This document shows, piece after piece, positions 1 to 64,000 of a stretch of 64,000 nt of DNA. The notes beneath the pieces were generated by a model. It worked only from the letters and a program-made list of their open reading frames with translations, ran no database searches and was not told the origin of the DNA. Position numbers and translations under genes: made by a program. Source of the stretch: Eledone cirrhosa (taxonomy: Eukaryota); contig OZ024740.1 in NCBI GenBank assembly GCA_964016885.1, positions 296,112,001 to 296,176,000 on the forward strand, given 5' to 3'. The stretch's first letter is position 1. Each line of letters begins with the position of its first letter.

Positions 1-5571
<5,571 letters not shown>

Positions 5572-5791
5572 TGTGTGTGTGTGTATCCATCTCTGTGTAA
5601 TATTGACCCTCCGTCTGACACCTTATAGCTAATACCTTAAGGGACCCACGTCGTTGAAAGCTTACGTCTTTTGACACTACAGTCGGTCGATTAATTGATT
5701 AACCAACATTCCTCTACTTTAATATTATATATATATTACCAGGAAATATTCATTTAACTGTAATTGTTTGCATAGTGATTAGATCATTCAA

Positions 5792-42003: not shown

Positions 42004-42203
42004 NNNNNNNNNNNNNNNNNNNNNNNNNNNNNNNNNNNNNNNNNNNNNNNNNNNNNNNNNNNNNNNNNNNNNNNNNNNNNNNNNNNNNNNNNNNNNNNNN
42101 NNNNNNNNNNNNNNNNNNNNNNNNNNNNNNNNNNNNNNNNNNNNNNNNNNNNNNNNNNNNNNNNNNNNNNNNNNNNNNNNNNNNNNNNNNNNNNNNNNNN
42201 NNN
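42004..42203. other. Assembly gap (200 N)
   Basis: Exactly 200 N, which looks like a fixed-size scaffold spacer. Confidence 0.99.
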
Positions 42204-45200
42204 AAATTGATGCTGAAATATTTTGGAAAAAATGACGAAATTTTCTGGAAAAAATGACGAAATTTTCTGGAAAAATTGACGAAATATTCTGGATAAATTG
42301 ACGAAATATTCGTGAAAAATGTCGAAATTTTTTGGAAACAATGACGAAATTTTCGGGAAATATTGACGAAATTTTCTGTGAAAAATGCCGAAATTTTCGG
42401 GGAAAACGTCGAAAATTTCGGCAAAAATTGTTGAAATTTTCGGCAGAAATTGTTGAAATTTTCAGCTGAAACTGACGAAATTTTCGGGAAAAAATGACGA
42501 AATTTCCGGCAAAAATTTACGAAATTTTCATGAAAAATAATGAATGAAATTTTCTGTAAAAATTGACGAAAGTTTCGGGAAAAAATACTGAAATTTTCTG
42601 GAAAAAATGACGAAATTTTTAGCAAAAATGACGAAATTTTCTGGAAAAATTGACGAAATATCCTGGATAAATTGACGAAATATTCGGCAAAAAATGTCGA
42701 AATTTTTTTGAAAAAATGACGAAATTATCGGCAAAAAATGATGAAATTTTCGGGAAAAATTGACGAAATTTTCTTTGATAAATGCCGAAATTTTCGGGAA
42801 AAAACGTCGAAATTTTCGGCTGAAACTGACGAAATTTTCGGCAAAAATTGACGATATTTTCGGGAAAAAACGCCGAAATTTTCGAGGAAAAATGAAAAGA
42901 TTTTCGGCCAAAATGACGAAATTTTCGGGGAAAAACGACGAAATTTTCGTGAAAAAATGCCCAAATGTTCGGCAAAAAATGACGAAATTTTCGGCAAAAA
43001 TTAGGAGGTAGAATCTTAGGGGGTAGAACCTTAGGAGGTAAAACCTTAGGAGGTAGAACCAAGGGGTAGAACCTTAGGGGGAATCCATTTTTTATTTCGG
43101 TGATCCATTTTCTATTTGGGGGATCCATTTTTTATTTCGGTGATCCATTTTTTATTTGGGTGATCCATTTTTTATTTGATGGATCTCCCAAATAAAAAAT
43201 GGATCACCCAAATAAAAAATGGATCCCCCAAATAAAAAATGGATCACCCAAATAAAAAATGGATCACCCAAATAAAAACTTGATCCTCCAAATAAAAAAT
43301 TGATCACCCAAATAAAAAATGGATCCCCCAAATAAAAAATGGATCCCCCAAATAAAAAATGGATCCCCCAAATAAAAAATGGATCACCCAAATAAAAACT
43401 GGATCCCCCAAATAAAAATTGGATCCCCCAAATAAAAAATTGATCACCCAAATAAAAAATGGATCGCCCAAATAAAAAATGGATCCAAAAAATTAAAAAT
43501 GGATCACCCAAATAAAAAATGGATCACCCAAATAAAAAATGGATACCCCAAATAAAAAATGGATCACCCAAATAAAAAATGGACCCCCAAATAAAAAATG
43601 GATCACCCAAATAAAAAATGGATCACCCAAATAAAAAATGGATACCCAAATAAAAAATGGATCACGCAAATAAAAAATGGATCCGCCAAATAAAAAATGG
43701 ATCACCCAAATAAAAAATGGATCCCCCAAATAAAAAATGGATCACCCAAATAAAAAATGGATCCCCCAAATAAAAAATGGATCCCCCAAATAAAAAATGG
43801 ATCCCCCAAATAAAAAATGGATCACCCAAATTAAAAATGGATCACCCAAATAAAAAATGGATCGCCCAAATAAAAAATGGATCACCCAAATAAAAAATGG
43901 ATCACCCAAATAAAAAATGGATCCCCCAAATAAAAAATAGATCCCCCAAATAAAAAATGGATCACCCTAATAAAAAATGGATCACCCAAATAAAAAATGA
44001 ATCCCCCAAATAAAAAATGGATCACCCTAATAAAAAATGGATCCCCCCAAATAAAAAATGGATCACCCAAATAAAAAATGGATCCCTTTTTTATTTAGCG
44101 GATCCATTTTTTATTTCGGGGATCCATTTTTTATTTGGCTGATCCATTTTTTATTTGGGTGATCCATTCTTTATTTGGGGGATCCATTTTTTATTTGGGT
44201 GATCCATTTTTAATTTGGGTGATCCATTTTTTATTTGGGGGATCCATTTTTTATTTGGGTGATCCATTTTTTATTTGGGGGATCCATTTTTTATTTCGGT
44301 GATCCATTTTTTATTTGGGTGATCCATTTTTTATTTGGGGGATCCATTTTTTATTTGGGTGATCCATTTTTTATTTGGTGGATCCAATTTTTATTTGGGG
44401 GATCCATTTTTTATTTGGGTGATCCATTTTTTATTTGGGGTATCCATTTTTAATTTGGGTGATCCATTTTTTATTTGGGTGATCCATTTTTTATTTGAGG
44501 GATACATTTTTTATTTGGGGGATCCATTTTTTATTTGATGGATCTCCCAAATAAAAAATGGATAACCCAAATAAAAAATGGATCACCCAAATTGATGCTG
44601 AAATATTTTGGAAAAAATGACGAAATTTTCTGGAAAAAATGACGAAATTTTCTGGAAAAATTGACGAAATATTCTGGATAAATTGACGAAATATTCGTGA
44701 AAAATGTCGAAATTTTTTGGAAACAATGACGAAATTTTCGGGAAATATTGACGAAATTTTCTGTGAAAAATGCCGAAATTTTCGGGGAAAACGTCGAAAA
44801 TTTCGGCAAAAATTGTTGAAATTTTCGGCAGAAATTGTTGAAATTTTCAGCTGAAACTGACGAAATTTTCGGGAAAAAATGACGAAATTTCCGGCAAAAA
44901 TTTACGAAATTTTCATGAAAAAATGATGAAATTTTCTGTAAAAATTGACGAAAGTTTCGGGAAAAAATACTGAAATTTTCTGGAAAAAATGACGAAATTT
45001 TTAGCAAAAATGACGAAATTTTCTGGAAAAATTGACGAAATATCCTGGATAAATTGACGAAATATTCGGCAAAAAATGTCGAAATTTTTTTGAAAAAATG
45101 ACGAAATTATCGGCAAAAAATGATGAAATTTTCGGGAAAAATTGACGAAATTTTCTTTGATAAATGCCGAAATTTTCGGGAAAAAACGTCGAAATTTTCG

Positions 45201-48200
45201 GCTGAAACTGACGAAATTTTCGGGAAAAAATGATGAAATTTTTGGCAAAAATTGACTAAATTTTCCGGAAAAAACGACGAAATATTCGGCAAAAAATTGA
45301 CGAAATTTTCGTGAAAAAATGCCGAAATTTTCCGCAAAAATTGACTAAATTTTCGGGGAAAATTGACGAAATTTTCGGTAAAAAATCAGGAATTTTTAGG
45401 CAAAAATTGACGAAATTTTCGGGAAAAATTGACGAAATTTTCGGGGGAAAATGCCGAAACTTTAGGGAAAAAAATGATAAAATTTTCGGCAAAAATTGAC
45501 TACATTTTCGGGAAAAAATGACGAAAGTTTCGGCAAAAAGTGACGAAATTTTCTTGGAAAAATGCCGAAATTTATCTGGAAAAAACGTCGAAATTTTCGG
45601 CAAAAATTGTTGAAATTTTCGGCTGAAATTGACGAAATTTTCGGGAAAAAATGATGAAATTTTCGGCAAAAATTGACTAAATTTTCCGGAAAAAATCACG
45701 AAATTTTCGGCAAAAAATGACGAAATTTTCGTGAAAAAATGCCGAAATTTTCTGCAAAAATTGACTAAATTTTCTGTAAAAATTGACGAAATTTTCGGTA
45801 AAAAATGAGGAATTTTTAGGCAAAAATTGACGAAATTTTCGGGAAAAAATGCCGAAATTTTAGGGGAAAAAATGATGAAATTTTCGGCAAGAATTGACGA
45901 CATTTTCGGAAAAAAATGACGAAAGTTTCGGGAAAAAATGCCTAAATTTTCGGGAAAAAAGGACGAAATTTTCGGTAAAAAGTGACGAAATTTTCGGCAA
46001 AAATTGACGAAATTTTCGGCAGAATTTGACGAAATTTTCTTCAAAAAAATCCGAAATTTTCGGCAAAAATTGATATTTTCGGGAAAAAACGCCGAAATTT
46101 TCGAGGAAAAATGAAAAAAATTTCGGCCAAAATGACGAAATTTTCGGGAAAAAACGACGAAATTTTCGTGAAAAAATGCCCAAATGTTCGGAAAAAATGA
46201 CGAAATTTTCGGCAAAAATTAGGAGGTAGAATCTTAGGAGGTAAAACCTTAGGAGGTAGAACCAAGGGGTAGAACCTTAGGGGGAATCCATTTTTTATTT
46301 CGGTGATCCATTTTCTATTTGGGGGATCCATTTTTTATTTCGGTGATCCATTTTTTATTTGGGTTATCCATTTTTTATTTGATGGATCTCCCAAATAAAA
46401 AATGGATCACCCAAATAAAAAATGGATCACCCAAATAAAAAATGGATCACCCAAATAAAAACTTGATCCTCCAAATAAAAAATGGATCACCCAAATAAAA
46501 AATGGATCCCCCAAATAAAAAATGGATCCCCCAAATAAAAAATGGATCCCCCAAATAAAAAATGGATCACCCAAATAAAAACTGGATGCCCCAAATAAAA
46601 AATGGATCCCCCAAATAAAAAATTGATCACCCAAATAAAAAATGGATCGCCCAAATAAAAAATGGATCCAAAAAATTAAAAATGGATCACCCAAATAAAA
46701 AATGGATCCCTTTTTTATTTAGCGGATCCATTTTTTATTTCGGGGATCCATTTTTTATTTGGCTGATCCATTTTTTATTTGGGTGATCCATTCTTTATTT
46801 GGGGGATCCATTTTTTATTTGGGTGATCCATTTTTAATTTGGGTGATCCATTTTTTATTTGGGGGATCCATTTTTTATTTGGGTGATCCATTTTTTATTT
46901 GGGGGATCCATTTTTTATTTCGGTGATCCATTTTTTATTTGGGTGATCCATTTTTTATTTGGGGGATCCATTTTTTATTTGGGTGATCCATTTTTTATTT
47001 GGTGGATCCAATTTTTATTTGGGGGATCCATTTTTTATTTGGGTGATCCATTTTTTATTTGGGGTATCCATTTTTAATTTGGGTGATCCATTTTTTATTT
47101 GGGTGATCCATTTTTTATTTGAGGGATACATTTTTTATTTGGGGGATCCATTTTTTATTTGATGGATCTCCCAAATAAAAAATGGATCACCCAAATAAAA
47201 AATGGATCACCCAAATTGATGCTGAAATATTCTGGAAAAATTGACGAAATTTTCGGGAAAAAATGATGAAATTTTCGGCAAAAATTGACTAAATTTTCCG
47301 GAAAAAATCACGAAATTTTCGGCAGGAATGACGAAATTTTCGTGAAAAAATGCCTAAATTTTCCGCAAAAATTGACTAAATTTTCTGTAAAAATTGACGA
47401 AATTTTCGGTCAATAATGAGGAATTTTTAGGCAAAAATTGATGAAATTTTCGGGAAAAAATGCCGAAATTTTAGGGGAAAAAATAATGAAATTTTCGGCA
47501 AAAATTGACGACATTTTCGGGAAAAAATGACGAAAGTTTCGGGAAAAATGGATCACCCAAATAAAAAATGGATCACCCAAATAAAAAATGGATACCCCAA
47601 ATAAAAAATAGATCACCCAAATAAAAAATGGACCCCCAAATAAAAAATGGATCACCCAAATAAAAAATGGATCACCCAAATAAAAAATGGATACCCAAAT
47701 AAAAAATGGATCACGCAAATAAAAAATGGATCCCCCAAATAAAAAATGGATCACCCAAATAAAAAATGGATCCACCAAATAAAAAATGGATCACACAAAT
47801 AAAAAATGGATCCCCCAAATAAAAAATGGATCCCCCAAATAAAAAATGGATCCCCCAAATAAAAAATGGATCACCCAAATTAAAAATGGATTACCAAATA
47901 AAAAATGGAACGCCCAAATAAAAAATGGATCGCCCAAATAAAAAATGGATCACCCAAATAAAAAATGGATCACCCAAATAAAAAATGGATCCCCCAAATA
48001 AAAAATAGATCCCCCAAATAAAAAATGGATCCCCCAAATAAAAAATGGATCACCCTAATAAAAAATGGATCACCCAAATAAAAAATGGATCCCCCAAATA
48101 AAAAATGGATCCCCCAAATAAAAAATGGATCACCCTAATAAAAAATGGATCCCCCCAAATAAAAAATGGATCACCCAAATAAAAAATGGATCCCTTTTTT

Positions 48201-51200
48201 ATTTGGGGGATCCATTTTTTATTTGGGGGAACCATTTTTTATTTGGGTGATCCATTTTTTACTTGGGTGACCCATTTTTTATTTGGGGTATCCATTTTTA
48301 ATTTGGGTGATCCATTTTTTATTTGGGTGATCCATTTTTTTATTTGAGGGATCCATTTTTTATTTGAGGGATACATTTTTTATTTGGGGGATCCATTTTT
48401 TATTTGATGGATCTCCCAAATAAAAAATGGATCACCCAAATAAAAAATGGATCACCCAAATTAATGCTGAAATTTTCTGGAAAAAATGACGAAATTTTCT
48501 GGAAAAAATGACGAAATTTTCAGCAAAAATGACGAAATTTTCTGGAAAAATTGACGAAATATTCTGGATAAATTGACGAAATATTCGTGAAAAAATGTCG
48601 AAATTTTTTGGAAACAATGACGAAATTGTCGTCAAAAAATGACGAAATTTTCGGGAAATATTGACGAAATTTTCTGTGAAAAATGCCGAAATTTTCGGGA
48701 AAAAACGTCGAAATTTTCGGCAAAAATTGTTGAAATTTTCGGCTGAAACTGACGAAATTTTCGGGAAAAAATGACGAAATTTTTAGCAAAAATGACGAAA
48801 TTTTCTGGAAAAATTGACGAAATATCCTGGATAAATTGACGAAATATTCGGTAAAAAATGTCGAAATTTTTGGAAAAAATGACGAAATTATCGGCAAAAA
48901 ATGATGAAATTTTCGGAAAAAATTGACGAAATTTTCTTTGAAAAATGCCGAAATTTTCGGGAAAAAACGTCGAAATTTTCGCTGAAACTGACGAAATTTT
49001 CGGGAAAAAATGATGAAATTTTGGGCAAAAATTGACTACATTTTCCGGAAAAAATCACGAAATTTTCGGCAAAAAATGACGAAATTTTCGTGAAAAAATG
49101 CCGAAATTTTCCGCAAAAATTGACTAAATTTTCGGGGAAAATTGACGAAATTGTCGGTAAAAAATCAGGAATTTTTAGGCAAAAATTGACGAAATTTTCG
49201 GGAAAAATTGACGAAATTTTCGGGGGAAAATGCCGAAACTTTAGGGAAAAAAATGATAAAATTTTCGGCAAAAATTGACTACATTTTCGGGAACAAATGA
49301 CGAAAGTTTCGGCAAAAAGTGACGAAATTTTCTTGGAAAAATGCCAAAATTTATCTGGAAAAAACGTCGAAATTTTCGGCAAAAATTGTTGAAATTTTCG
49401 GCTGAAATTGACGAAATTTTCGGGAAAAAATGATGAAAATTTTCGGCAAAAATTGTCTAAATTTTCCGGAAAAAATGACGAAATTTTCGGCAAAAAATGA
49501 CGAAATTTTCGTGAAAAAATGCCGAAATTTTCCGCAAAAATTGACTAAATTTTCTGTAAAAATTGACGATATTTTCGGGAAAAAACGCCGAAATTTTCGA
49601 GGAAAAATGAAAAAATTTTCGGCCAAAATGACGAAATTTTCGGGAAAAAACGACGAAATTTTCGTGAAAAAATGCCCAAATGTTCGGAAAAAATGACGAA
49701 ATTTTCGGCAAAAATAAGGAGGTAGAATCTTAGGGGGTAGAACCTTAGGAGGTAAAACCTTAGGAGGTAGAACCAAGGGGTAGAACCTTAGGGGGAATCC
49801 ATTTTTTATTTCGGTGATCCATTTTCTATTTGGGGGATCCATTTTTTATTTCGGTGATCCATTTTTTATTTGGGTTATCCATTTTTTATTTGATGGATCT
49901 CCCAAATAAAAAATGGATCACCCAAATAAAAAATGGATCACCCAAATAAAAAATGGATCACCCAAATAAAAACTTGATCCTCCAAATAAAAAATGGATCA
50001 CCCAAATAAAAAATGGATCCCCCAAATAAAAAATGGATCCCCCAAATAAAAAATGGATCCCCCAAATAAAAAATGGATCACCCAAATAAAAACTGGATGC
50101 CCCAAATAAAAAATGGATCCCCCAAATAAAAAATTGATCACCCAAATAAAAAATGGATCGCCCAAATAAAAAATGGATCCAAAAAATTAAAAATGGATCA
50201 CCCAAATAAAAAATGGATCCCTTTTTTATTTAGCGGATCCATTTTTTATTTCGGGGATCCATTTTTTATTTGGCTGATCCATTTTTTATTTGGGTGATCC
50301 ATTCTTTATTTGGGGGATCCATTTTTTATTTGGGTGATCCATTTTTAATTTGGGTGATCCATTTTTTATTTGGGGGATCCATTTTTTATTTGGGTGATCC
50401 ATTTTTTATTTGGGGGAATCCATTTTTTATTTCGGTGATCCATTTTTTATTTGGGTGATCCATTTTTTATTTGGGGGATCCATTTTTTATTTGGGTGATC
50501 CATTTTTTATTTGGTGGATCCAATTTTTATTTGGGGGATCCATTTTTTATTTGGGTGATCCATTTTTTATTTGGGGTATCCATTTTAATTTGGGTGATCC
50601 ATTTTTTATTTGGGTGATCCATTTTTTATTTAAGGGATACATTTTTTATTTGGGGGATCCATTTTTTATTTGATGGATCTCCCAAATAAAAAATGGATCA
50701 CCCAAATTGATGCTGAAATATTCTGGAAAAATTGACGAAATTTTCTGAAAAAAATGCCGAAAGTTTAGGGAAAAAAATGATGAAATTTTCGGCAAAAATT
50801 GACGACATTTTCGGGAAAGAATTACGAAAGTTTCGGCAAAAAGTGACGAAATTTTCTGGAAAAAACGTCGAAATTTTCGGCAAAAATCGTTGAAATTTTC
50901 GGCTGAAATTGACGAAATTTTCGGGAAAAAATGATGAAATTTTCGGCAAAAATTGACTAAATTTTCCGGAAAAATCACGAAATTTTCGGCAAAAATGACG
51001 AAATTTTCGTGAAAAAATGCCTAAATTTTCCGCAAAAATTGACTAAATTTTCTGTAAAAATTGACGAAATTTTCGGTGAATAATGAGGAATTTTTAGGCA
51101 AAAATTGACGAAATTTTCGGGAAAAAATGCCGAAATTTTAGGGGAAAAAATAATGAAATTTTCGGCAAAAATTGACGACATTTTCGGGAAAAAATGACGA

Positions 51201-54200
51201 AAGTTTCGGGAAAAAATGCCTAAATTTTCGGGAAAAAAGGACGAAATTTTCGGTAAAAAGTGACGAAATTTTCGGCAAAAATTGACGAAATTTTCGGCAG
51301 AATTTGACGAAATTTTCTTCAAAAAAATCCGAAATTTTCGGCAAAAATTGACGATATTTTCGGGAAAAAACGCCGAAATTTTCGAGGAAAAATGAAAAGA
51401 TTTTTCGGCCAAAATGACGAAATTTTCGGGGAAAAACGACGAAATTTTCGTGAAAAAATGCCCAAATGTTCGGCAAAAAATGACGAAATTTTCGGCAAAA
51501 ATTAGGAGGTAGAATCTTAGGGGGTAGAACCTTAGGAGGTAAAACCTTAGGAGGTAGAACCAAGGGGTAGAACCTTAGGGGGAATCCATTTTTTATTTCG
51601 GTGATCCATTTTCTATTTGGGGGATCCATTTTTTATTTCGGTGATCCATTTTTTATTTGGGTGATCCATTTTTTATTTGATGGATCTCCCAAATAAAAAA
51701 TGGATCACCCAAATAAAAAATGGATCCCCCAAATAAAAAATGGATCACCCAAATAAAAAATGGATCACCCAAATAAAAACTTGATCCTCCAAATAAAAAA
51801 TTGATCACCCAAATAAAAAATGGATCCCCCAAATAAAAAATGGATCCCCCAAATAAAAAATGGATCCCCCAAATAAAAAATGGATCACCCAAATAAAAAC
51901 TGGATCCCCCAAATAAAAATTGGATCCCCCAAATAAAAAATTGATCACCCAAATAAAAAATGGATCGCCCAAATAAAAAATGGATCCAAAAAATTAAAAA
52001 TGGATCACCCAAATAAAAAATGGATCACCCAAATAAAAAATGGATACCCCAAATAAAAAATGGATCACCCAAATAAAAAATGGACCCCCAAATAAAAAAA
52101 GGATCACCCAAATAAAAAATGGATCACCCAAATAAAAAATGGATACCCAAATAAAAAATGGATCACGCAAATAAAAAATGGATCCCCCAAATAAAAAATG
52201 GATCACCCAAATAAAAAATGGATCCCCCAAATAAAAAATGGATCACCCAAATAAAAAATGGATCCCCCAAATAAAAAATGGATCCCCCAAATAAAAAATG
52301 GATCCCCCAAATAAAAAATGGATCACCCAAATTAAAAATGGATCACCCAAATAAAAAATGGATCGCCCAAATAAAAAATGGATCACCCAAATAAAAAATG
52401 GATCACCCAAATAAAAAATGGATCCCCCAAATAAAAAATAGATCCCCCAAATAAAAAATGGATCCCCCAAATAAAAAATGGATCACCCTAATAAAAAATG
52501 GATCACCCAAATAAAAAATGGATCCCCCAAATAAAAAATGGATCACCCTAATAAAAAATGGATCCCCCCAAATAAAAAATGGATCACCCAAATAAAAAAT
52601 GGATCCCTTTTTTATTTAGCGGATCCATTTTTTATTTCGGGGATCCATTTTTTATTTGGCTGATCCATTTTTTATTTGGGTGATCCATTCTTTATTTGGG
52701 GGATCCATTTTTTATTTGGGTGATCCATTTTTAATTTGGGTGATCCATTTTTTATTGGGGGATCCATTTTTTATTTGGGTGATCCATTTTTTATTTGGGG
52801 GATCCATTTTTTATTTCGGTGATCCATTTTTTATTTGGGTGATCCATTTTTTATTTGGGGGATCCATTTTTTATTTGGGTGATCCATTTTTTATTTGGTG
52901 GATCCAATTTTTATTTGGGGGATCCATTTTTTATTTGGGTGATCCATTTTTTATTTGGGGTATCCATTTTTAATTTGGGTGATCCATTTTTTATTTGGGT
53001 GATCCAATTTTTATTTGAGGGATACATTTTTTATTTGGGGGATCCATTTTTTATTTGATGGATCTCCCAAATAAAAAATGGATCACCCAAATAAAAAATG
53101 GATCACCCAAATTGATGCTGAAATATTCTGGAAAAAATGACGAAATTTTCTGGAAAAAATGACGAAATTTTCTGGAAAAATTGACGAAATATTCTGGATA
53201 AATTGACGAAATATTCGTGAAAAATGTCGAAATTTTTTGGAAACAATGACGAAATATTCGGGAAATATTGACGAAATTTTCTGTGAAAAATGCCGAAATT
53301 TTCGGGGAAAACGTCGAAATTTTCGGCAAAAATTGTTGAAATTTTCGGCAGAAATTGTTTAAATTTTCGGCTGAAACTGACGAAATTTTCGGGAAAAAAT
53401 GACGAAATTTCCGGCAAAAATTTACGAAATTTTCATGAAAAAATGATGAAATTTTCTGTAAAAATTGACGAAAGTTTCGGGAAAAAATACTGAAATTTTC
53501 TGGAAAAAATGACGAAATTTTTAGCAAAAATGACGAAATTTTCTGGAAAAATTGACGAAATATCCTGGATAAATTGACGAAATATTCGGCAAAAAATGTC
53601 GAAATTTTTTTGAAAAAATGACGAAATTATCGGCAAAAAATGATGAAATTTTCGGGAAAAATTGACGAAATAATCTTTGATAAATGCCGAAATTTTCGGT
53701 AAAAAACGTCGAAATTTTCGGCTGAAACTGACGAAATTTTCGGGAAAAAATGATGAAATTTTTGGCAAAAATTGACTAAATTTTCCGGAAAAAATGACGA
53801 AATATTCGGCCAAAAATGTCGAAATTTTCGTGAACAAATGCCGAAATTTTCCGCAAAAATTGACTAAATTTTCGGGGAAAATTGAATAAATTTTCGGGGA
53901 AAATTGACGAAATTTTCGTTAAAAAATCAGGAATTTTAAGGCAAAAATTGACGAAATTTTCGGGAAAAATTGACGAAATTTTCGGGGGAAAATGCCGAAA
54001 CTTTAGGGAAAAAAATGATAAAATTTTCGGCAAAAATTGACTACATTTTCGGGAAAAAATGACGAAATTTTCGTGAAAAAATGCCGAAATTTTCCGCAAA
54101 AATTGACTAAATTTTCTGTAAAAATTGACGAAATTTTCGATAAAAAATGAGGAATTTTTAGGCAAAAAATTGACGAACTTTTCGGGAAAAAATTCCGAAT

Positions 54201-57200
54201 TTTAAGGGAAAAAATGATGAAATTTTCGGCAAAAATTGACGACATTTTCGGAAAAAAATGACGAAAGTTTCGGGAAAAAATGCCTAAATTTTCGGGAAAA
54301 AAGGACGAAATTTTCGGTAAAAAGTGACGAAATTTTCTTTGAAAAATGCCGAAATTTTCGGGAAAAAACGTCGAAATTTTCGCTGAAACTGACGAAATTT
54401 TCGGGAAAAAATGATGAAATTTTTGGCAAAAATTGACTAAATTTTCCGGAAAAAATCACGAAATTTTCGGCAAAAAATGACGAAATTTTCGTGAAAAAAT
54501 GCCGAAATTTTCCGCAAAAATTGACTAAATTTTCGGGGGAAAATTGACGAAATTGTCGGTAAAAAATCAGGAATTTTTAGGCAAAAATTGACGAAATTTT
54601 CGGGAAAAATTGACGAAATTTTCGGGGGAAAATGCCGAAACTTTAGGGAAAAAAATGATAAAATTTTCGGCAAAAATTGACTACATTTTCGGGAAAAAAT
54701 GACGAAAGTTTCGGCAAAAAGTGACGAAATTTTCTTGGAAAAATGCCGAAATTTATCTGGAAAAAACGTCGAAATTTTCGGCAAAAATTGTTGAAATTTT
54801 CGGCTGAAATTGACGAAATTTTCGGGAAAAAATGATGAAATTTTCGGCAAAAAATGACGAAATTTTCGTGAAAAAATGCCGATATTTTCGGCAAAAATTG
54901 ACTAAATTTTCTGTAAAAATTGACGAAATTTTCGGTCAAAAATGAGGAATTTTTAGGCAAAAATTGACGAAATTTTCGGGAAAAAATGCAGAAATTTTAG
55001 GGTTAAAAATGATGAAATTTTCGGCAAGAATTGACGACATTTTCGGAAAAAAATGACGAAAGTTTCGGGAAAAAATGCCTAAATTTTCGGGAAAAAAGGA
55101 CGAAATTTTCGGTAAAAAGTGACGAAATTTTCGGCAAAAATTGACGAAATTTTCGGCAGAATTTGACGAAATTTTCTTCAAAAAAATCCGAAATTTTCGG
55201 CAAAAATTGACGTATTTTCGGGAAAAAACGCCGAAATTTTCGAGAAAAATGAAAAAATTTTCGGCCAAAATGACGAAATTTTCGGGAAAAACGACGAAAT
55301 TTTCGTGAAAAAATGCCCAAATGTTCGGAAAAAATGACGAAATTTTCGGCAAAAATTAGGAGGTAGAATCTTAGGGGGTAGAACCTTAGGAGGTAAAACC
55401 TTAGGAGGTAGAACCAAGGGGTAGAACCTTAGGGGGAATCCATTTTTTATTTCGGTGATCCATTTTCTATTTGGGGGATCCATTTTTTATTTCGGTGATC
55501 CATTTTTTATTTGGGTTATCCATTTTTTATTTGATGGATCTCCCAAATAAAAAATGGATCACCCAAATAAAAAATGGATCACCCAAATAAAAAATGGATC
55601 ACCCAAATAAAAACTTGATCCTCCAAATAAAAAATGGATCACCCAAATAAAAAATGGATCCCCCAAATAAAAAATGGATCCCCCAAATAAAAAATGGATC
55701 CCCCAAATAAAAAATGGATCACCCAAATAAAAACTGGATGCCCCAAATAAAAAATGGATCCCCCAAATAAAAAATTGATCACCCAAATAAAAAATGGATC
55801 GCCCAAATAAAAAATGGATCCAAAAAATTAAAAATGGATCACCCAAATAAAAAATGGATCCCTTTTTTATTTAGCGGATCCATTTTTTATTTCGGGGATC
55901 CATTTTTTATTTGGCTGATCCATTTTTTATTTGGGTGATCCATTCTTTATTTGGGGGATCCATTTTTATTTGGGTGATCCATTTTTAATTTGGGTGATCC
56001 ATTTTTTATTTGGGGGATCCATTTTTTATTTGGGTGATCCATTTTTTATTTGGGGCATCCATTTTTTATTTCGGTGATCCATTTTTTATTTGGGTGATCC
56101 ATTTTTTATTTGGGGGATCCATTTTTTATTTTGGGTGATCCATTTTTTATTTGGTGGATCCAATTTTTATTTGGGGGATCCATTTTTTATTTGGGTGATC
56201 CATTTTTTATTTGGGGTATCCATTTTTAATTTGGGTGATCCATTTTTTATTTGGGTGATCCATTTTTTATTTAAGGGATACATTTTTTATTTGGGGGATC
56301 CATTTTTTATTTGATGGATCTCCCAAATAAAAAATGGATCACCCAAATAAAAAATGGATCACCCAAATTGATGCTGAAATATTCTGGAAAAATTGACGAA
56401 ATTTTCTGAAAAAAATGCCGAAAGTTTAGGGAAAAAAATGATGAAATTTTCGGCAAAAATTGACGACATTTTCGGGAAAGAATTACGAAAGTTTCGGCAA
56501 AAAGTGACGAAATTTTCTGGAAAAAACGTCGAAATTTTCGGCAAAAATTGTTGAAATTTTCGGCTGAAATTGACGAAATTTTCGGGAAAAAATGATGAAA
56601 TTTTCGGCAAAAATTGACTAAATTTTCCGGAAAAAATCACGAAATTTTCGGCAAAAATGACGAAATTTTCGTGAAAAAATGCCTAAATTTTCCGCAAAAA
56701 TTGACGAAATTTTCGGTCAATAATGAGGAATTTTTAGGCAAAAATTGACGAAATTTTCGGGAAAAAATGCCGAAATTTTAGGGGAAAAAATAATGAAATT
56801 TTCGGCAAAAATTGACGACATTTTCGGGAAAAAATGACGAAAGTTTCGGGAAAAAATGCCTAAATTTTCGGGAAAAAAGGACGAAATTTTCGGTAAAAAG
56901 TGACGAGATTTTCGGCAAAAATTGACGAAATTTTCGGCAGAATTTGACGAAATTTTCTTCAAAAAAATCCGAAATTTTCGGCAAAAATTGACGATATTTT
57001 CGGGAAAAAACGCCGAAATTTTCGAGGAAAAATGAAAAGATTTTCGGCCAAAATGACGAAATTTTCGGGGAAAAACGACGAAATTTTCGTGAAAAAATGC
57101 CCAAATGTTCGGCAAAAAATGACGAAATTTTCGGCAAAAATTAGGAGGTAGAATCTTAGGGGGTAGAACCTTAGGAGGTAAAACCTTAGGAGGTAGAACC

Positions 57201-60200
57201 AAGGGGTAGAACCTTAGGGGGAATCCATTTTTTATTTCGGTGATCCATTTTCTATTTGGGGGATCCATTTTTTATTTCGGTGATCCATTTTTTATTTGGG
57301 TGATCCATTTTTTATTTGATGGATCTCCCAAATAAAAAATGGATCACCCAAATAAAAAATGGATCCCCCAAATAAAAAATGGATCACCCAAATAAAAAAT
57401 GGATCACCCAAATAAAAACTTGATCCTCCAAATAAAAAATTGATCACCCAAATAAAAAATGGATCCCCCAAATAAAAAATGGATCCCCCAAATAAAAAAT
57501 GGATCCCCCAAATAAAAAATGGATCACCCAAATAAAAACTGGATCCCCCAAATAAAAATTGGATCCCCCAAATAAAAAATTGATCACCCAAATAAAAAAT
57601 GGATCGCCCAAATAAAAAATGGATCCCAAAAATTAAAAATGGATCACCCAAATAAAAAATGGATCACCCAAATAAAAAATGGATACCCCAAATAAAAAAT
57701 GGATCACCCAAATAAAAAATGGACCCCCAAATAAAAAATGGATCACCCAAATAAAAAATGAATCACCCAAATAAAAAATGGATACCCAAATAAAAAATGG
57801 ATCACGCAAATAAAAAATGGATCCCCCAAATAAAAAATGGATCACCCAAATAAAAAATGGATCCCCCAAATAAAAAATGGATCACCCAAATAAAAAATGG
57901 ATCCCCCAAATAAAAAATGGATCCCCCAAATAAAAAATGGATCCCCCAAATAAAAAATGGATCACCCAAATTAAAAATGGATCACCCAAATAAAAAATGG
58001 ATCGCCCAAATAAAAAATGGATCACCCAAATAAAAAATGGATCACCCAAATAAAAAATGGATCCCCCAAATAAAAAATAGATCCCCCAAATAAAAAATGG
58101 ATCCCCCAAATAAAAAATGGATCACCCTAATAAAAAATGGATCACCCAAATAAAAAATGGATCCCCCAAATAAAAAATGGATCACCCTAATAAAAAATGG
58201 ATCCCCCCAAATAAAAAATGGATCACCCAAATAAAAAATGGATCCCTTTTTTATTTAGCGGATCCATTTTTTATTTCGGGGATCCATTTTTTATTTGGCT
58301 GATCCATTTTTTATTTGGGTGATCCATTCTTTATTTGGGGGATCCATTTTTTATTTGGGTGATCCATTTTTAATTTGGGTGATCCATTTTTTATTTGGGG
58401 GATCCATTTTTTATTTGGGTGATCCATTTTTTATTTGGGGGATCCATTTTTTATTTCGGTGATCCATTTTTTATTTGGGTGATCCATTTTTTATTTGGGG
58501 GATCCATTTTTTATTTGGGTGATCCATTTTTTATTTGGTGGATCCAATTTTTATTTGGGGGATCCTTTTTTTATTTGGGTGATCCATTTTTTATTTGGGG
58601 TATCCATTTTTAATTTGGGTGATCCATTTTTTATTTGGGTGATCCATTTTTTATTTGAGGGATACATTTTTTATTTGGGGGATCCATTTTTTATTTGATG
58701 GATCTCCCAAATAAAAAATGGATCACCCAAATAAAAAATGGATCACCCAAATTGATGCTGAAATATTCTGGAAAAAATGACGAAATTTTCTGGAAAAAAT
58801 GACGAAATTTTCTGGAAAAATTGACGAAATATTCTGGATAAATTGACGAAATATTCGTGAAAAATGTCGAAATTTTTTGGAAACAATGACGAAATTTTCG
58901 GGAAATATTGACGAAATTTTCTGTGAAAAATGCCGAAATTTTCGGGGAAAACGTCGAAATTTTCGGCAAAAATTGTTGAAATTTTCGGCAGAAATTGTTG
59001 AAATTTTCGGCTGAAACTGACGAAATTTTCGGGAAAAAATGACGAAATTTCCGGCAAAAATTTACGAAATTTTCATGAAAAAATGATGAAATTTTCTGTA
59101 AAAATTGACGAAAGTTTCGGGAAAAAATACTGAAATTTTCTGGAAAAAATGACGAAATTTTTAGCAAAAATGACGAAATTTTCTGGAAAAATTGACGAAA
59201 TATCCTGGATAAATTGACGAAATATTCGGCAAAAAATGTCGAAATTTTTTTGAAAAAATGACGAAATTATCGGCAAAAAATGATGAAATTTTCGGGAAAA
59301 ATTGACGAAATTTTCTTTGATAAATGCCGAAATTTTCGGGAAAAAACGTCGAAATTTTCGGCTGAAACTGACGAAATTTTCGGGAAAAAATGATGAAATT
59401 TTTGGCAAAAATTGACTAAATTTTCCGGAAAAAATGACGAAATATTCGGCAAAAAATGACGAAATTTTCGTGAAAAAATGCCGAAATTTTCCGCAAAAAT
59501 TGACTAAATTTTCGGGGAAAATTGACGAAATTTTCGGTAAAAAATCAGGAATTTTTAGGCAAAAATTGACGAAATTTTCGGGAAAAATTGACGAAATTTT
59601 CGGGGGAAAATGCCGAAACTTTAGGGAAAAAAATGATAAAATTTTCGGCAAAAATTGACTACATTTTCGGGAAAAAATGACGAAAGTTTCGGCAAAAAGT
59701 GACGAAATTTTCTTGGAAAAATGCCGAAATTTATCTGGAAAAAACGTCGAAATTTTCGGCAAAAATTGTTGAAATTTTCGGCTGAAATTGACGAAATTTT
59801 CGGGAAAAAATGATGAAATTTTCGGCAAAAATTGACTAAATTTTCCGGAAAAAATCACGAAATTTTCGGCAAAAAATGACGAAATTTTCGTGAAAAAATG
59901 CCGAAATTTTCCGCAAAAATTGACTAAATTTTCTGTAAAAATTGACGAAATTTTCGGTAAAAAATGAGGAATTTTTAGGCAAAAATTGACGAAATTTTCG
60001 GGAAAAAATGCCGAAATTTTAGGGGAAAAAATGATGAAATTTTCGGCAAAAATTGACGACATTTTCGGAAAAAAATGACGAAAGTTTCGGGAAAAAATGC
60101 CTAAATTTTCGGGAAAAAAGGACGAAATTTTCGGTAAAAAGTGACGAAATTTTCGGCAAAAATTGACGAAATTTTCGGCAGAATTTGACGAAATTTTCTT

Positions 60201-63200
60201 CAAAAAAATCCGAAATTTTCGGCAAAAATTGACGATATTTTCGGGAAAAAACGCCGAAGTTTTCGAGGAAAAATGAAAAAATTTTCGGCCAAAATGACGA
60301 AATTTTCGGGAAAAAACGACGAAATTTTCGTGAAAAAATGCCCAAATGTTCGGAAAAAATGACGAAATTTTCGGCAAAAATTAGGAGGTAGAATCTTAGG
60401 GGGTAGAACCTTAGGAGGTAAAACCTTAGGAGGTAGAACCAAGGGGTAGAACCTTAGGGGGAATCCATTTTTTATTTCGGTGATCCATTTTCTATTTGGG
60501 GGATCCATTTTTTATTTCGGTGATCCATTTTTTATTTGGGTTATCCATTTTTTATTTGATGGATCTCCCAAATAAAAAATGGATCACCCAAATAAAAAAT
60601 GGATCACCCAAATAAAAAATGGATCACCCAAATAAAAACTTGATCCTCCAAATAAAAAATGGATCACCCAAATAAAAAATGGATCCCCCAAATAAAAAAT
60701 GGATCCCCCAAATAAAAAATGGATCCCCCAAATAAAAAATGGATCACCCAAATAAAAACTGGATCCCCCAAATAAAAAATGGATCCCCCAAATAAAAAAT
60801 TGATCACCCAAATAAAAAATGGATCGCCCAAATAAAAAATGGATCCAAAAAATTAAAAATGGATCACCCAAATAAAAAATGGATCCCTTTTTTATTTAGC
60901 GGATCCATTTTTTATTTCGGGGATCCATTTTTTATTTGGCTGATCCATTTTTTATTTGGGTGATCCATTCTTTATTTGGGGGATCCATTTTTTATTTGGG
61001 TGATCCATTTTTAATTTGGGTGATCCATTTTTTATTTGGGGGATCCATTTTTTATTTGGGTGATCCATTTTTTATTTGGGGGATCCATTTTTTATTTCGG
61101 TGATCCATTTTTTATTTGGGTGATCCATTTTTTATTTGGGGGATCCATTTTTTATTTGGGTGATCCATTTTTTATTTGGTGGATCCAATTTTTATTTGGG
61201 GGATCCATTTTTTATTTGGGTGATCCATTTTTTATTTGGGGTATCCATTTTTAATTTGGGTGATCCATTTTTTATTTGGGTGATCCATTTTTTATTTGAG
61301 GGATACATTTTTTATTTGGGGGATCCATTTTTTATTTGATGGATCTCCCAAATAAAAAATGGATCACCCAAATAAAAAATGGATCACCCAAATTGATGCT
61401 GAAATATTCTGGAAAAATTGACGAAATTTTCTGGAAAAAATGCCGAAAGTTTAGGGAAAAAAATGATGAAATTTTCGGCAAAAATTGACGACATTTTCGG
61501 GAAAGAATGACGAAAGTTTCGGCAAAAAGTGACGAAATTTTCTGGAAAAAACGTCGAAATTTTCGGCAAAAATTGTTGAAATTTTCGGCTTAAATTGACG
61601 AAATTTTCGGGAAAAAATGATGAAATTTTCGGCAAAAATTGACTAAATTTTCCGGAAAAAATCACGAAATTTTCGGCAAAAATGACGAAATTTTCGTGAA
61701 AAAATGCCTAAATTTTCCGCAAAAATTGATTAAATTTTCTGTAAAAATTGACGAAATTTTCGGTCAATAATGAAGAATTTTTAGGCAAAAATTGACGAAA
61801 TTTTCGGGAAAAAATGCCGAAATTTTAGGGGAAAAAATAATGAAATTTTCGGCAAAAATTGACGACATTTTCGGGAAAAAATGACGAAAGTTTCGGGAAA
61901 AAATGCCTAAATTTTCGGGAAAAAAGGACGAAATTTTCGGTAAAAAGTGACGAGATTTTCGGCAAAAATTGACGAAATTTTCGGCAGAATTTGACGAAAT
62001 TTTCTTCAAAAAAATCCGAAATTTTCGGCAAAAATTGACGATATTTTCGGGAAAAAACGCCGAAATTTTCGAGGAAAAATGAAAAGATTTTCGGCCAAAA
62101 TGACGAAATTTTCGGGAAAAAACGACGAAATTTTCGTGAAAAAATGCCCAAATGTTCGGAAAAAATGACGAAATTTTCGGCAAAAATTAGGAGGTAGAAT
62201 CTTAGGGGGTAGAACCTTAGGAGGTAAAACCTTAGGAGGTAGAACCAAGGGGTAGAACCTTAGGGGGAATCCATTTTTTATTTCGGTGATCCATTTTCTA
62301 TTTGGGGGATCCATTTTTTATTTCGGTGATCCATTTTTTATTTGGGTGATCCACTTTTTATTTGATGGATCTCCCAAATAAAAAATGGATCACCCAAATA
62401 AAAAATGGATCCCCCAAATAAAAAATGGATCACCCAAATAAAAAATGGATCACCCAAATAAAAACTTGATCCTCCAAATAAAAAATTGATCACCCAAATA
62501 AAAAATGGATCCCCCAAATAAAAAATGGATCCCCCAAATAAAAAATGGATCCCCCAAATAAAAAATGGATCACCCAAATAAAAACTGGATCCCCCAAATA
62601 AAAAATGGATCACCCAAATAAAAAATTGATCACCCAAATAAAAAATGGATCGCCCAAATAAAAAATGGATCCAAAAAATTAAAAATGGATCACCCAAATA
62701 AAAAATGGATCACCCAAATAAAAAATGGATACCCCAAATAAAAAATGGATACCCAAATAAAAAATGGATCACGCAAATAAAAAATGGATCCCCCAAATAA
62801 AAAATGGATCACCCAAATAAAAAATGGATCCCCCAAATAAAAAATGGATCACCCAAATAAAAAATGGATCCCCCAAATAAAAAATGGATCACCCAAATAA
62901 AAAATGGATCCCCCAAATAAAAAATGGATCCCCCAAATAAAAAATGGATCCCCCAAATAAAAAATGGATCACCCAAATTAAAAATGGATCACCCAAATAA
63001 AAAATGGATCGCCCAAATAAAAAATGGATCACCCAAATAAAAAATGGATCACCCAAATAAAAAATGGATCCCCCAAATAAAAAATAGATCCCCCAAATAA
63101 AAAATGGATCCCCCAAATAAAAAATGGATCACCCTAATAAAAAATGGATCACCCAAATAAAAAATGGATCCCCCAAATAAAAAATGGATCACCCTAATAA

Positions 63201-64000
63201 AAAATGGATCCCCCCAAATAAAAAATGGATCACCCAAATAAAAAATGGATCCCTTTTTTATTTAGCGGATCCATTTTTTATTTCGGGCATCCATTTTTTA
63301 TTTGGCTGATCCATTTTTTATTTGGGTGATCCATTCTTTATTTGGGGGATCCATTTTTTATTTCGGTGATCCATTTTTAATTTGGGTGATCCATTTTTTA
63401 TTTGGGGGATCCATTTTTTATTTGGGTGATCCATTTTTTATTTGGGGGATCCATTTTTTATTTCGGTGATCCATTTTTTATTTGGGTGATCCATTTTTTA
63501 TTTGGGGGATCCATTTTTTATTTGGGTGATCCATTTTTTATTTGGTGGATCCAATTTTTATTTGGGGGATCCATTTTTTACTTGGGTGATCCATTTTTTA
63601 TTTGGGGTATCCATTTTTAATTTGGGTGATCCATTTTTTATTTGGGTGATCCATTTTTTATTTGAGGGATACATTTTTTATTTGGGGGATCCATTTTTTA
63701 TTTGATGGATCTCCCAAATAAAAAATGGATCACCCAAATAAAAAATGGATCACCCAAATAAAAAATGGATCACCCAAATTGATGCTGAAATATTATGGAA
63801 AAAATGACGAAATTTTCTGGAAAAAATGACGAAATTTTTGGAAAAATTGACGAAATATTCTGGATAAATTGACGAAATATTCGTGAAAAATGTCGAAATT
63901 TTTTGGAAACAATGACGAAATTGTCGTCAAAAAATGACGAAATTTTCGGGAAATTTTGACGAAATTTTCTGTGAAAAATGCCGAAATTTTCGGGGAAAAC
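42204..64000. repeat. Composite satellite with a ~5-kb higher-order repeat: monomer A (~21-22 bp, gacgaaattttcggcaaaaatt), monomer B (20 bp, ggatcacccaaataaaaaat, both orientations) and monomer C (15 bp, ttaggaggtagaacc)
   Basis: C blocks start at 43001, 46219, 49715, 51502, 55356, 57141, 60381 and 62187. Diagnostic monomer variants recur in the same order. The distance 57141 to 62187 is 5046 bp. Confidence 0.97.

What the first reader, a model, noticed from the sequence alone, without database searches (positions are those of the whole stretch)
43087..44590. The 20-bp monomer block switches strand three times at conserved junctions, giving a large built-in palindrome in each unit
Seen: an intact B block runs T-rich (~4 units), junction tttgatggatctcccaaa, A-rich (about 16 or 45 units), junction aaaaaatGGATCCctttttt (centre 44080-44085), T-rich (~23 units), the same gatggatctcc junction again, then A-rich (2-3 units). 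The central junction is a loop-free palindrome with ~300-450-bp pairable arms and is conserved across units. Satellite monomers are normally head-to-tail, and long spacerless palindromes are usually unstable. Inference: these could be cruciform or hairpin sites, a source of fold-back dsRNA and small RNAs, or the footprint of amplification by fold-back priming.
Basis: partly seen in the sequence, partly recalled or inferred. Interest (0 to 1): 0.72.

Follow-up and report, generated by a model that had tools for sequence, protein, structure and literature searches.

The report
Strand-flipping satellite with inherited inversion scars
A 20-base satellite repeat flips strand at two fixed junction sequences that recur hundreds of times in this genome; they are likely the scars of one old inversion copied along with the repeat, a layout so far described mainly in flour beetles and human satellites, and no function is shown.

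Summary
Block 43083-44592 reads T5 / J1 / A45 / J2 / T23 / J1 / A3, and all nine blocks in the window carry the same junctions.

It is a family trait, not a feature of this unit alone. In 194 kb sampled on contig C1 there are 219 strand switches, of essentially two sequence types:
- T>A junctions: 94 of 124 are ATGGATCTCC or its reverse complement.
- A>T junctions: 90 of 95 are GGATCC-centred.

The same two types occur on contig C5 beside a ~1.1-Mb stretch where the same satellite shows no switch in 8 of 8 sampled loci.

Raw reads from three other individuals cross J1, and reads from two cross J2, so this is not an assembly artefact.

The arms pair only at monomer-consensus level: 91% identity in any register, and the mirror register is best in 0 of 32 junctions. 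Blocks are 99.2-99.9% alike. The two junctions fit one reciprocal inversion.

My reading is old inversion scars spread by unequal crossing-over and flipped by inter-arm recombination. Fold-back priming is not supported. Cruciform or dsRNA roles remain untested.

The closest known case is the Tribolium "macro-dyad" satellite arrays. The scan's earlier notes hold nothing on this satellite.

The parts
42004..42203 (.). 200-N scaffold gap directly left of the satellite array
   Evidence: the join between unique DNA and the array is therefore not sequence-resolved
42225..43000 (+). 22-bp satellite sub-array (GGAAAAAATGACGAAATTTTCG, 35 copies), single orientation
   Evidence: the 22-bp arrays keep one orientation in all sampled loci except one (L013)
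43001..43078 (+). 15-bp linker repeat TTAGGAGGTAGAACC, about 5 copies
   Evidence: the same 15-mer forms arrays of its own at C1:279.44-279.475 Mb
43083..43178 (-). First sub-array of the 20-bp satellite, T-rich reading, 5 monomers
43175..43192 (+). Junction J1 (T>A), TTTGATGGATCTCCCAAA; 10-nt non-palindromic core ATGGATCTCC
43179..44084 (+). A-rich sub-array, 45 monomers; 15-16 in the short blocks after in-register deletions of 20 and 559/579 bp
44073..44092 (+). Junction J2 (A>T), AAAAAATGGATCCCTTTTTT; GGATCC at 44080-44085, one mismatch at +/-4
44080..44537 (-). T-rich sub-array, 23 monomers; right arm of the quasi-palindrome
44534..44551 (+). Second copy of junction J1, same orientation as the first
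   Evidence: crossed by raw reads of three other individuals
44538..44592 (+). Terminal A-rich sub-array, 2.8 monomers, then the next 22-bp array
46286..47216 (.). Short block T5/A15/T23/A2
   Evidence: 99.5% identical to 43083-44592 over aligned columns
47544..48461 (.). Variant block A32/T11/A3, without the first T run or the 15-bp linker
49797..50714 (.). Short block T5/A15/T23/A1
51584..53112 (.). Long block T5/A45/T23/A2
55438..56368 (.). Short block
57223..58752 (.). Long block
60463..61393 (.). Short block
62269..63779 (.). Long block

Best explanation
The 20-bp satellite flips strand at two fixed junction sequences that are copied together with the repeat unit. These are most likely the two scars of a single old reciprocal inversion inside a head-to-tail array. 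They were later spread by unequal crossing-over or segmental amplification, and now and then flipped by recombination between the oppositely oriented arms.

Shown directly:
- Strand switches are pervasive in this family.
- Only two junction types exist, plus point variants, and they are shared between two chromosomes.
- Whole blocks are near-identical recent copies, while the arms are only consensus-alike.
- The junctions are present in reads of other individuals.

Inferred:
- One inversion as the origin.
- Unequal exchange as the spreading mechanism.
- Inter-arm recombination as the cause of flipped junctions.

On this reading the built-in quasi-palindromes are by-products. They would fold into long hairpins if single-stranded. 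About 9% arm mismatch, together with mismatches next to the centre, would make them tolerable. No function is needed to explain their conservation.
For: 1. Two junction types only. In 194 kb sampled on C1 there are 219 switches. Of 124 T>A junctions, 75 are ATGGATCTCC, 19 are its reverse complement, and most of the rest are one-base variants. Of 95 A>T junctions, 90 are GGATCC-centred. The idiosyncratic bases of J1 recur, which argues for descent rather than repeated events.

2. The same types occur on C5 in the zone 64.41-64.445 Mb, including the CCGC-variant monomer next to J2.

3. Reciprocity. The inner segments are 8 nt (J2) and 12 nt (J1), summing to 20. Of 400 breakpoint pairs tried on a consensus array, only the class p+q = 8 (mod 20) fits. 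The best pairs need 2 mismatches in 71 bases, and all other classes need 8 or more.

4. The event was an inversion, not an inverted duplication. The mirror register gives 0.909 identity against 0.902-0.921 for registers shifted by 1-5 monomers, and it is the best register in 0 of 32 junctions. Monomer variants next to J2 are not mirrored.

5. Recent unit amplification. Eight of the nine blocks (all but the variant block at 47544-48461) are 99.2-99.9% identical to one another, apart from one pair at 98.5%. They differ by indels of 20, 40, 540, 559 or 579 bp. Arm length varies from 1 to 108 monomers.

6. Flips. All four relative orientations of J1 and J2 occur within single 10-kb loci.

7. The junctions are real. 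The J2 28-mer occurs 233 times with 0 controls. Raw RAD reads of three other individuals cover the J1 core at depth 54, 21 and 27. Reads of two individuals cover the bin just right of J2 at depth 7 and 3. k-mer contigs cross both junctions without differences.
Against: - The exact breakpoints cannot be resolved. Nine or more breakpoint pairs tie for the perfect-J2 variant found at C1:279.69 Mb.
- Two independent symmetric switches at the monomer's GATC palindrome would also give the 8 + 12 lengths. The reciprocity argument therefore rests on 2 against 4 mismatches and on the asymmetry of J1.
- The symmetry axis falls on the monomer's only palindromic site. This hints at a sequence-guided event, such as a template switch, rather than random breakage.
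- Unequal exchange inside the arms could have erased an old mirror register.
- At least one other A>T junction type exists, at C5:64.4438 Mb.
- The junction copies are not independent, so conservation says nothing for or against selection.
- Support for J2 in other individuals is thin (7 and 3 reads).
- No outgroup species was available to date the event.
Confidence: 0.72

Rival explanations
1. Palindromic amplification by fold-back priming or a hairpin-capped break (breakage-fusion-bridge type). Each A>T or T>A switch would be the centre of an inverted duplication made when a strand folded back at the monomer's GATC/GGATCC palindrome and primed its own copy.
For: Both symmetry axes pass through the monomer's only palindromic site. 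A perfect form of J2, AAAAAATGGATCCATTTTTT, exists 6 times in one locus. The 8 + 12 nt geometry is also what two GATC-centred fold-backs would give.
Against: There is no mirror-register excess of identity (0 of 32 best at register 0). The J1 core ATG-GATC-TCC needs 3 changes in the 6 bases flanking GATC to derive from a perfect palindrome. Arm lengths are unequal (median short/long ratio 0.42 and 0.25, no higher than shuffled pairs). The junctions are identical by descent rather than recurrent.
Confidence: 0.1
2. The junctions are kept because they do something. Hairpin or cruciform loops would serve as protein-binding or chromatin-organising sites of a (peri)centromeric satellite, as proposed for Tribolium. 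Alternatively, read-through transcripts would fold into long hairpin RNA that feeds small-RNA silencing.
For: The single-strand hairpin is very stable (-435 kcal/mol, z = -39). The junction cores are at least as conserved as ordinary monomers: 76% and 95% carry the main form, against 66% for the two commonest ordinary cores. Large arrays lie mid-chromosome on C5 (64.4-65.6 of 134.7 Mb). The same idea is published for Tribolium.
Against: Conservation is fully explained by copying of whole units that are 99%+ alike. There is no tendency to symmetric arms. The largest array of the same satellite (~1.1 Mb on C5) shows no switch in any of the 8 sampled 10-kb loci, so the switches are not needed for the satellite to persist.
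Confidence: 0.12
3. Assembly or sequencing artefact: chimeric fold-back reads or mis-joins in a hard repeat.
For: A 200-N gap abuts the array. Satellite arrays are error-prone to assemble. The k-mer contigs that cross the junctions may come from the sample used for the assembly.
Against: There are 233 exact copies of the J2 28-mer on both strands and on two chromosomes. Raw reads of three other individuals cross J1 at depth 21-54, and reads of two cross J2. Junction flanks carry consistent private variants.
Confidence: 0.03
4. Tandemly arrayed foldback-type transposon whose inverted arms are built of short tandem repeats.
For: The two ends of each block are inverted relative to each other, T-rich at the left and A-rich at the right. 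Drosophila FB elements have arms made of 10-, 20- and 31-bp repeats (recalled, not checked here).
Against: The boundary word between the 15-bp linker and the block occurs 46 times. All 46 lie in two neighbouring arrays on C1, and none is dispersed. The blocks have three to seven switches, not one. Pure 20-bp arrays without the other parts carry the same junctions.
Confidence: 0.03

Closest known systems
Macro-dyad symmetries of Tribolium satellite arrays (T. freemani, T. castaneum, T. madens; PMC12581902 and PMC13081366, abstracts and passages read)
   Same: Tandem arrays are built of sub-arrays in opposite orientation. A few inversion-site sequences are highly conserved over many sites. A second satellite is interleaved in cassettes with conserved transition zones. 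The sub-arrays could form hairpins. The organisation was confirmed on raw reads.
   Different: The monomer here is 20 bp, against about 110-170 bp or more in Tribolium. Arms here have a median of 16 monomers (about 0.3 kb, at most about 2.2 kb on C1), against several to 75 kb. There is no tendency to symmetric arms here. The family was found on two contigs, not all chromosomes. The genome is 3.0 Gb, far larger than my recalled size of a few hundred Mb for Tribolium genomes (not checked here). The 2026 paper states that such symmetries were documented only in Tribolium.
Human HSat3B5 (chr9) and beta-satellite arrays with over 200 inversion breakpoints (bioRxiv 10.1101/2021.07.12.452052, passages read)
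   Same: Satellite arrays carry many strand switches that are treated as inversion breakpoints.
   Different: I saw no statement there about junction sequence classes or reciprocity. The monomers and scales differ.
Complex satellite monomers with inverted subunits, such as the Tribolium brevicornis 1061-bp satellite with two ~470-bp inverted subunits (as cited in PMC12581902; original not read)
   Same: An inverted pair is fixed inside the amplified unit.
   Different: There the inverted subunits are the monomer itself. Here the arms are arrays of a 20-bp monomer and vary in copy number.
Inverted-repeat flip-flop recombination (chloroplast inverted repeats, yeast 2-micron plasmid, human Y palindromes; recalled, not checked here)
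   Same: Recombination between inverted arms flips the segment between them without creating new junctions. That would explain J1 and J2 occurring in all four relative orientations.
   Different: It is not shown to be ongoing here. It is only inferred from fixed arrangements.
Alu quasi-palindromes in yeast (PMC3855049, passages read)
   Same: These are closely spaced inverted repeats of a few hundred bp. The paper states that structure formation is lowered by spacer length and by sequence divergence.
   Different: Those are engineered 320-bp arms at 100% or 94% identity with a 12-bp spacer. Here the arms are natural, 91% alike, and have register freedom.

Membership tests
Macro-dyad-symmetric satellite arrays (Tribolium type) | Uninterrupted satellite arrays made of sub-arrays with opposite monomer orientation | tested here: met
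   219 switches among 5465 same-orientation neighbour pairs in 194 kb of C1; orientation maps
Macro-dyad-symmetric satellite arrays (Tribolium type) | Few, highly conserved inversion-site sequences shared by many sites | tested here: met
   94 of 124 T>A and 90 of 95 A>T junctions carry the main cores; the J2 28-mer occurs 233 times
Macro-dyad-symmetric satellite arrays (Tribolium type) | Multi-kilobase sub-arrays, with dyads of several to tens of kb | tested here: not met
   Arm median is 16 monomers (0.32 kb), interquartile range 8-29, maximum 108 on C1
Macro-dyad-symmetric satellite arrays (Tribolium type) | Tendency of direct and inverted sub-arrays towards equal length | tested here: not met
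   Median short/long ratio is 0.42 (shuffled 0.46) at A>T junctions and 0.25 (shuffled 0.37) at T>A junctions
Macro-dyad-symmetric satellite arrays (Tribolium type) | Interleaving with a second satellite in cassettes with conserved transition zones | tested here: met
   Units of 22-bp array + 15-bp linker + 20-bp block; the 26-base boundary word is exact 46 times. Pure 20-bp arrays also exist.
Macro-dyad-symmetric satellite arrays (Tribolium type) | (Peri)centromeric location on all chromosomes | not testable with these tools
   Found on C1 (279.5, 295.3, 296.2 Mb of 443 Mb) and C5 (64.4-65.6 of 134.7 Mb). No centromere map is available. About 80% of a diagnostic 50-mer is accounted for by these arrays.
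Palindromic amplicon made by fold-back priming | Arms are mirror copies, with highest identity in the mirror register | tested here: not met
   0.909 at register 0 against 0.902-0.921 at shifts of 1-5 monomers; register 0 is best in 0 of 32
Palindromic amplicon made by fold-back priming | Symmetric junction cores | tested here: inconclusive
   J2 is symmetric but for one base, and perfect in L043. J1 is not symmetric: 3 of the 6 bases flanking GATC are unpaired.
Foldback (FB-like) transposon | Dispersed insertions with target-site duplications | tested here: not met
   All 46 boundary words lie in two arrays on C1
Hairpin-RNA or small-RNA source locus | Transcripts and both-strand small RNAs from the arms | not testable with these tools

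The most novel reading that the evidence does not exclude
Strand-switching 'macro-dyad' satellite architecture is not a Tribolium peculiarity. It recurs in a distant 3-Gb animal genome, where conserved loop-forming junctions J1 and J2 in a 20-bp satellite would act as structural or protein-binding elements of (peri)centromeric chromatin, or as hairpin-RNA sources. The ~1.1-Mb stretch of the same satellite on another chromosome, free of switches in every locus sampled, would serve as a natural control.
Probability: 0.1. Interest if true: 0.7.

Novelty: new member of a known kind. Interest (0 to 1): 0.42.

Why it matters
It shows that a satellite can carry hundreds of near-spacerless quasi-palindromes of 0.1-2 kb and still be copied faithfully. 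It also shows that the apparent conservation of the junctions is explained by descent from one event. This gives a second, independent lineage for the macro-dyad layout that its authors reported only from flour beetles. Here it comes with a within-genome contrast: the same monomer is unidirectional over ~1.1 Mb on C5 and switches every ~26 monomers on C1. That contrast could be used to test whether the inversions affect replication, chromatin or RNA output. For assembly work, it is a caution that strand flips inside satellites can be real.

Tried and rejected
- monomer segmentation with a best-match fuzzy pattern found only a third of the monomers. I discarded it and replaced it with a dynamic-programming cut and with core-motif marks.
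- the gapless symmetry score drifts with 1-bp indels, so I used gapped alignments instead.
- the first breakpoint enumeration used too short an array and missed a tying model. I repeated it.
I then laid two short parts, as the tool advised.
- RNA evidence: no RNA holder was listed.
- Rfam: no family at gathering score in 5000-64000.
- Literal sequence search of papers for the three monomers: 0 papers.
- One search for octopus satellite papers listed nothing relevant among the 12 shown.
- The lead that loose read ends (…GGGGGCAGAATT…) marked a mobile-element terminus was rejected. That string is a variant monomer of the C5 array, with 99 copies all on one strand.
- Idea that each block is two direct copies of a T-J1-A cassette: the two J1 cores are identical, but their flanking monomers carry different variants. 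Only the core is shared.
- Earlier notes of this scan: none at or near this place, and none for this sequence.
Full report
**What is there**

The right third of the window (42225-64000) is a composite satellite. Each unit is a 22-bp array of 15-102 copies, about five copies of a 15-bp linker, and a block of a 20-bp satellite. A 200-N gap (42004-42203) separates the array from the unique DNA to its left.

I mapped the 20-bp monomer on both strands. Block 43083-44592 reads 5 T-rich, 45 A-rich, 23 T-rich and 3 A-rich monomers. The other eight blocks repeat this layout with 15 or 43-46 A-rich monomers. One variant block (47544-48461) reads A32/T11/A3.

The T>A junction word TTTGATGGATCTCCCAAA (J1) occurs 17 times in the window. 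The A>T word AAAAAATGGATCCCTTTTTT (J2) occurs 9 times. Both occur only at the switches.
- The first T run has 5 units, not about 4.
- J2 has one mismatch 4 bases from its GGATCC centre.
- The arms are 91% complementary rather than perfect.

**Is it real?**

The window is G000:C1:296112001-296176000 in a 3.0-Gb assembly.
- A 28-base J2 word occurs 115 times forward and 118 times reverse in the genome. Its reversed control occurs 0 times.
- Raw RAD reads of three other individuals of the same species label cover the J1 core (44536-47). Depths are about 54, 21 and 27, against about 70, 35 and 45 beside it.
- Reads of two individuals cover the private monomer just right of J2 at depth about 7 and 3.
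- k-mer contigs cross both junctions without differences (44067-44119 and 44515-44563). They may come from the sample that was assembled, so they are not independent.

An assembly artefact is very unlikely.

**It is a family trait**

I sampled further stretches of the genome.

On C1:
- The array at 279.48-279.69 Mb is pure 20-bp satellite and switches strand constantly, for example T31 A11 T80 A9 T53 A13.
- The composite arrays at 295.24-295.37 Mb and 296.155-296.206 Mb hold blocks with 3, 5 or 7 switches.
- In 194 kb of C1 there are 5465 same-orientation neighbour pairs and 219 switches. Arms have a median of 16 monomers, an interquartile range of 8-29 and a maximum of 108.

On C5:
- The same satellite fills 64.38-65.63 Mb.
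- All eight 10-kb loci sampled between 64.50 and 65.63 Mb hold about 500 monomers each, in one orientation, with no switch.
- All 99 copies of a private variant monomer lie on one strand.
- A 40-kb zone at the left end of that array has 13 switches.

**Only two junction types**

- Of 124 T>A junctions on C1, 75 have the core ATGGATCTCC and 19 have its reverse complement. Most of the rest are one-base variants.
- Of 95 A>T junctions, 90 have GGATCC between the cores.
- One locus (L043) has the perfect form AAAAAATGGATCCATTTTTT six times, paired with ATGGATCCCC.
- The C5 junctions are the same two types, down to the CCGC-variant monomer beside J2. One different A>T junction sits at the start of the long T array.
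- The recurring odd bases of J1 show identity by descent, not repeated events.

**How the junctions relate**

Between the conserved AAATAAAAAA cores an ordinary monomer has 10 bases. J2 has 8 and J1 has 12, which sum to 20.

I enumerated all 400 breakpoint pairs for one conservative inversion in a consensus array. Only the class p+q = 8 (mod 20) fits. The best pairs need 2 mismatches in 71 bases, and every other class needs 8 or more. This is what one reciprocal inversion predicts.

Two independent switches centred on the monomer's GATC palindrome would give the same lengths. Against that, the perfect-palindrome models need 4 mismatches rather than 2, and the J1 core is plainly asymmetric. The axis falling on the only palindromic site of the monomer suggests that the site guided the event.

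**Not a fold-back duplication**

I compared the reverse complement of the left arm with the right arm over 200 bp at 32 J2 sites with long arms on both sides. These 32 came from 68 exact J2 sites in the first eleven sources. The rest were dropped because an arm was too short or ran off the locus.

The mirror register gives 0.909 identity. Registers shifted by 1-5 monomers give 0.902-0.921. The mirror register is the best in 0 of 32 sites. The arms are therefore different monomers of one array, not copies of each other.

Arm lengths are not matched either. The median short/long ratio is 0.42 against 0.46 for shuffled pairs at J2, and 0.25 against 0.37 at J1.

**Recent spread**

- Eight of the nine blocks (all but the variant block at 47544-48461) are 99.2-99.9% identical to one another, apart from one pair at 98.5%.
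- The short form equals the long form minus 20 bp and 559/579 bp inside the A arm.
- Other differences are indels of 20 or 40 bp.
- This is the pattern expected from unequal exchange in register.
- J1 and J2 occur in all four relative orientations within single 10-kb loci. Recombination between inverted arms would produce that without creating new junction sequences.

**Structure**

As single-stranded DNA, 43620-44545 folds into one hairpin of -435.3 kcal/mol. Shuffles give -146.4, sd 7.4, so z = -39. The minimum-energy fold slips the arms by one monomer.

Whether this forms in vivo is untested. A yeast study states that structure formation at inverted repeats falls with spacer length and arm divergence (PMC3855049, passages read). 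That fits the persistence of these 91% arms.

**Other readings**

- A foldback-type transposon is unlikely. The boundary word between linker and block occurs 46 times, and all 46 lie in two arrays on C1.
- A functional role (centromere structure, hairpin RNA) is neither shown nor excluded. No RNA run was listed.
- About 80% of a diagnostic 50-mer (497 forward, 5491 reverse) is accounted for by the arrays I sampled. Smaller arrays elsewhere cannot be excluded.

**Comparison with the literature**

The nearest described case is the "macro-dyad symmetry" of Tribolium satellites. There, arrays are made of inverted sub-arrays with a few highly conserved inversion sites, interleaved with a second satellite in cassettes. 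The 2026 paper states that this was documented only in Tribolium (PMC13081366 and PMC12581902, abstracts and passages read; supplements not seen).

Human HSat3B5 and beta-satellite arrays hold over 200 inversion breakpoints (bioRxiv 10.1101/2021.07.12.452052, passages read).

The present case shares the defining layout but differs in several ways:
- It has a 20-bp monomer.
- Its arms are sub-kilobase and unequal in length.
- A switch-free megabase array of the same satellite exists in the same genome.

Earlier notes of this scan call the genome octopus-like. I did not test that.

**Verdict**

This is a new member of a known kind, of moderate interest.

Noticed in passing
window 1-5600: About 5.6 kb of almost pure A/T microsatellite-like repeat (GC 0.0-0.8% per kb), made of drifting TA-rich units such as ATATATTATATTTAT.
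   Followed up: no
window 21992-22993 (-), with 22974-23537 (-): An open frame with a PIF1-like helicase domain (Pfam PF05970, E 1.3e-45) and the Pif1 2B domain. It may be a Helitron-type or PIF1-derived element. The upstream frame has no Pfam hit.
   Followed up: partly
window 42004-42203: A 200-N scaffold gap lies exactly at the left edge of the satellite array. The placement of the array next to this unique DNA rests on scaffolding.
   Followed up: no
L041, L042 (G000:C1:279440001-279445000 and 279470001-279475000): The 15-bp linker TTAGGAGGTAGAACC forms arrays of its own (about 80% of 5 kb each), directly left of the pure 20-bp switching array. The composite unit therefore combines three satellites that also exist separately.
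   Followed up: partly
L028-L035 (G000:C5:64.50-65.63 Mb): A ~1.1-Mb array of the same 20-bp satellite in one orientation, near the middle of a 134.7-Mb contig. It carries a private variant monomer (…GGGGGCAGAATT…) 99 times, often in pairs 99 bp apart, which points to a higher-order repeat there.
   Followed up: partly
L013 about 3695-4770 (G000:C1:295303695-295304770): A local mirror arrangement: 22-bp array, 15-bp linker, short 20-bp block, then the 15-bp and 22-bp repeats in reverse orientation. It is the only place where the 22-bp satellite is inverted in the sample.
   Followed up: no
L050 about 3797 (G000:C5:64443797): The A>T switch that opens the long T array on C5 has a different, degenerate junction (28 bases between the cores). 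At least one further inversion event therefore exists.
   Followed up: no
window 44600-46218 and other 22-bp arrays: The 22-bp satellite shows 44- and 66-bp higher periodicities in Tandem Repeats Finder. Its monomer holds a short dyad, CGAAA-T-TTTCG (read from the sequence).
   Followed up: no
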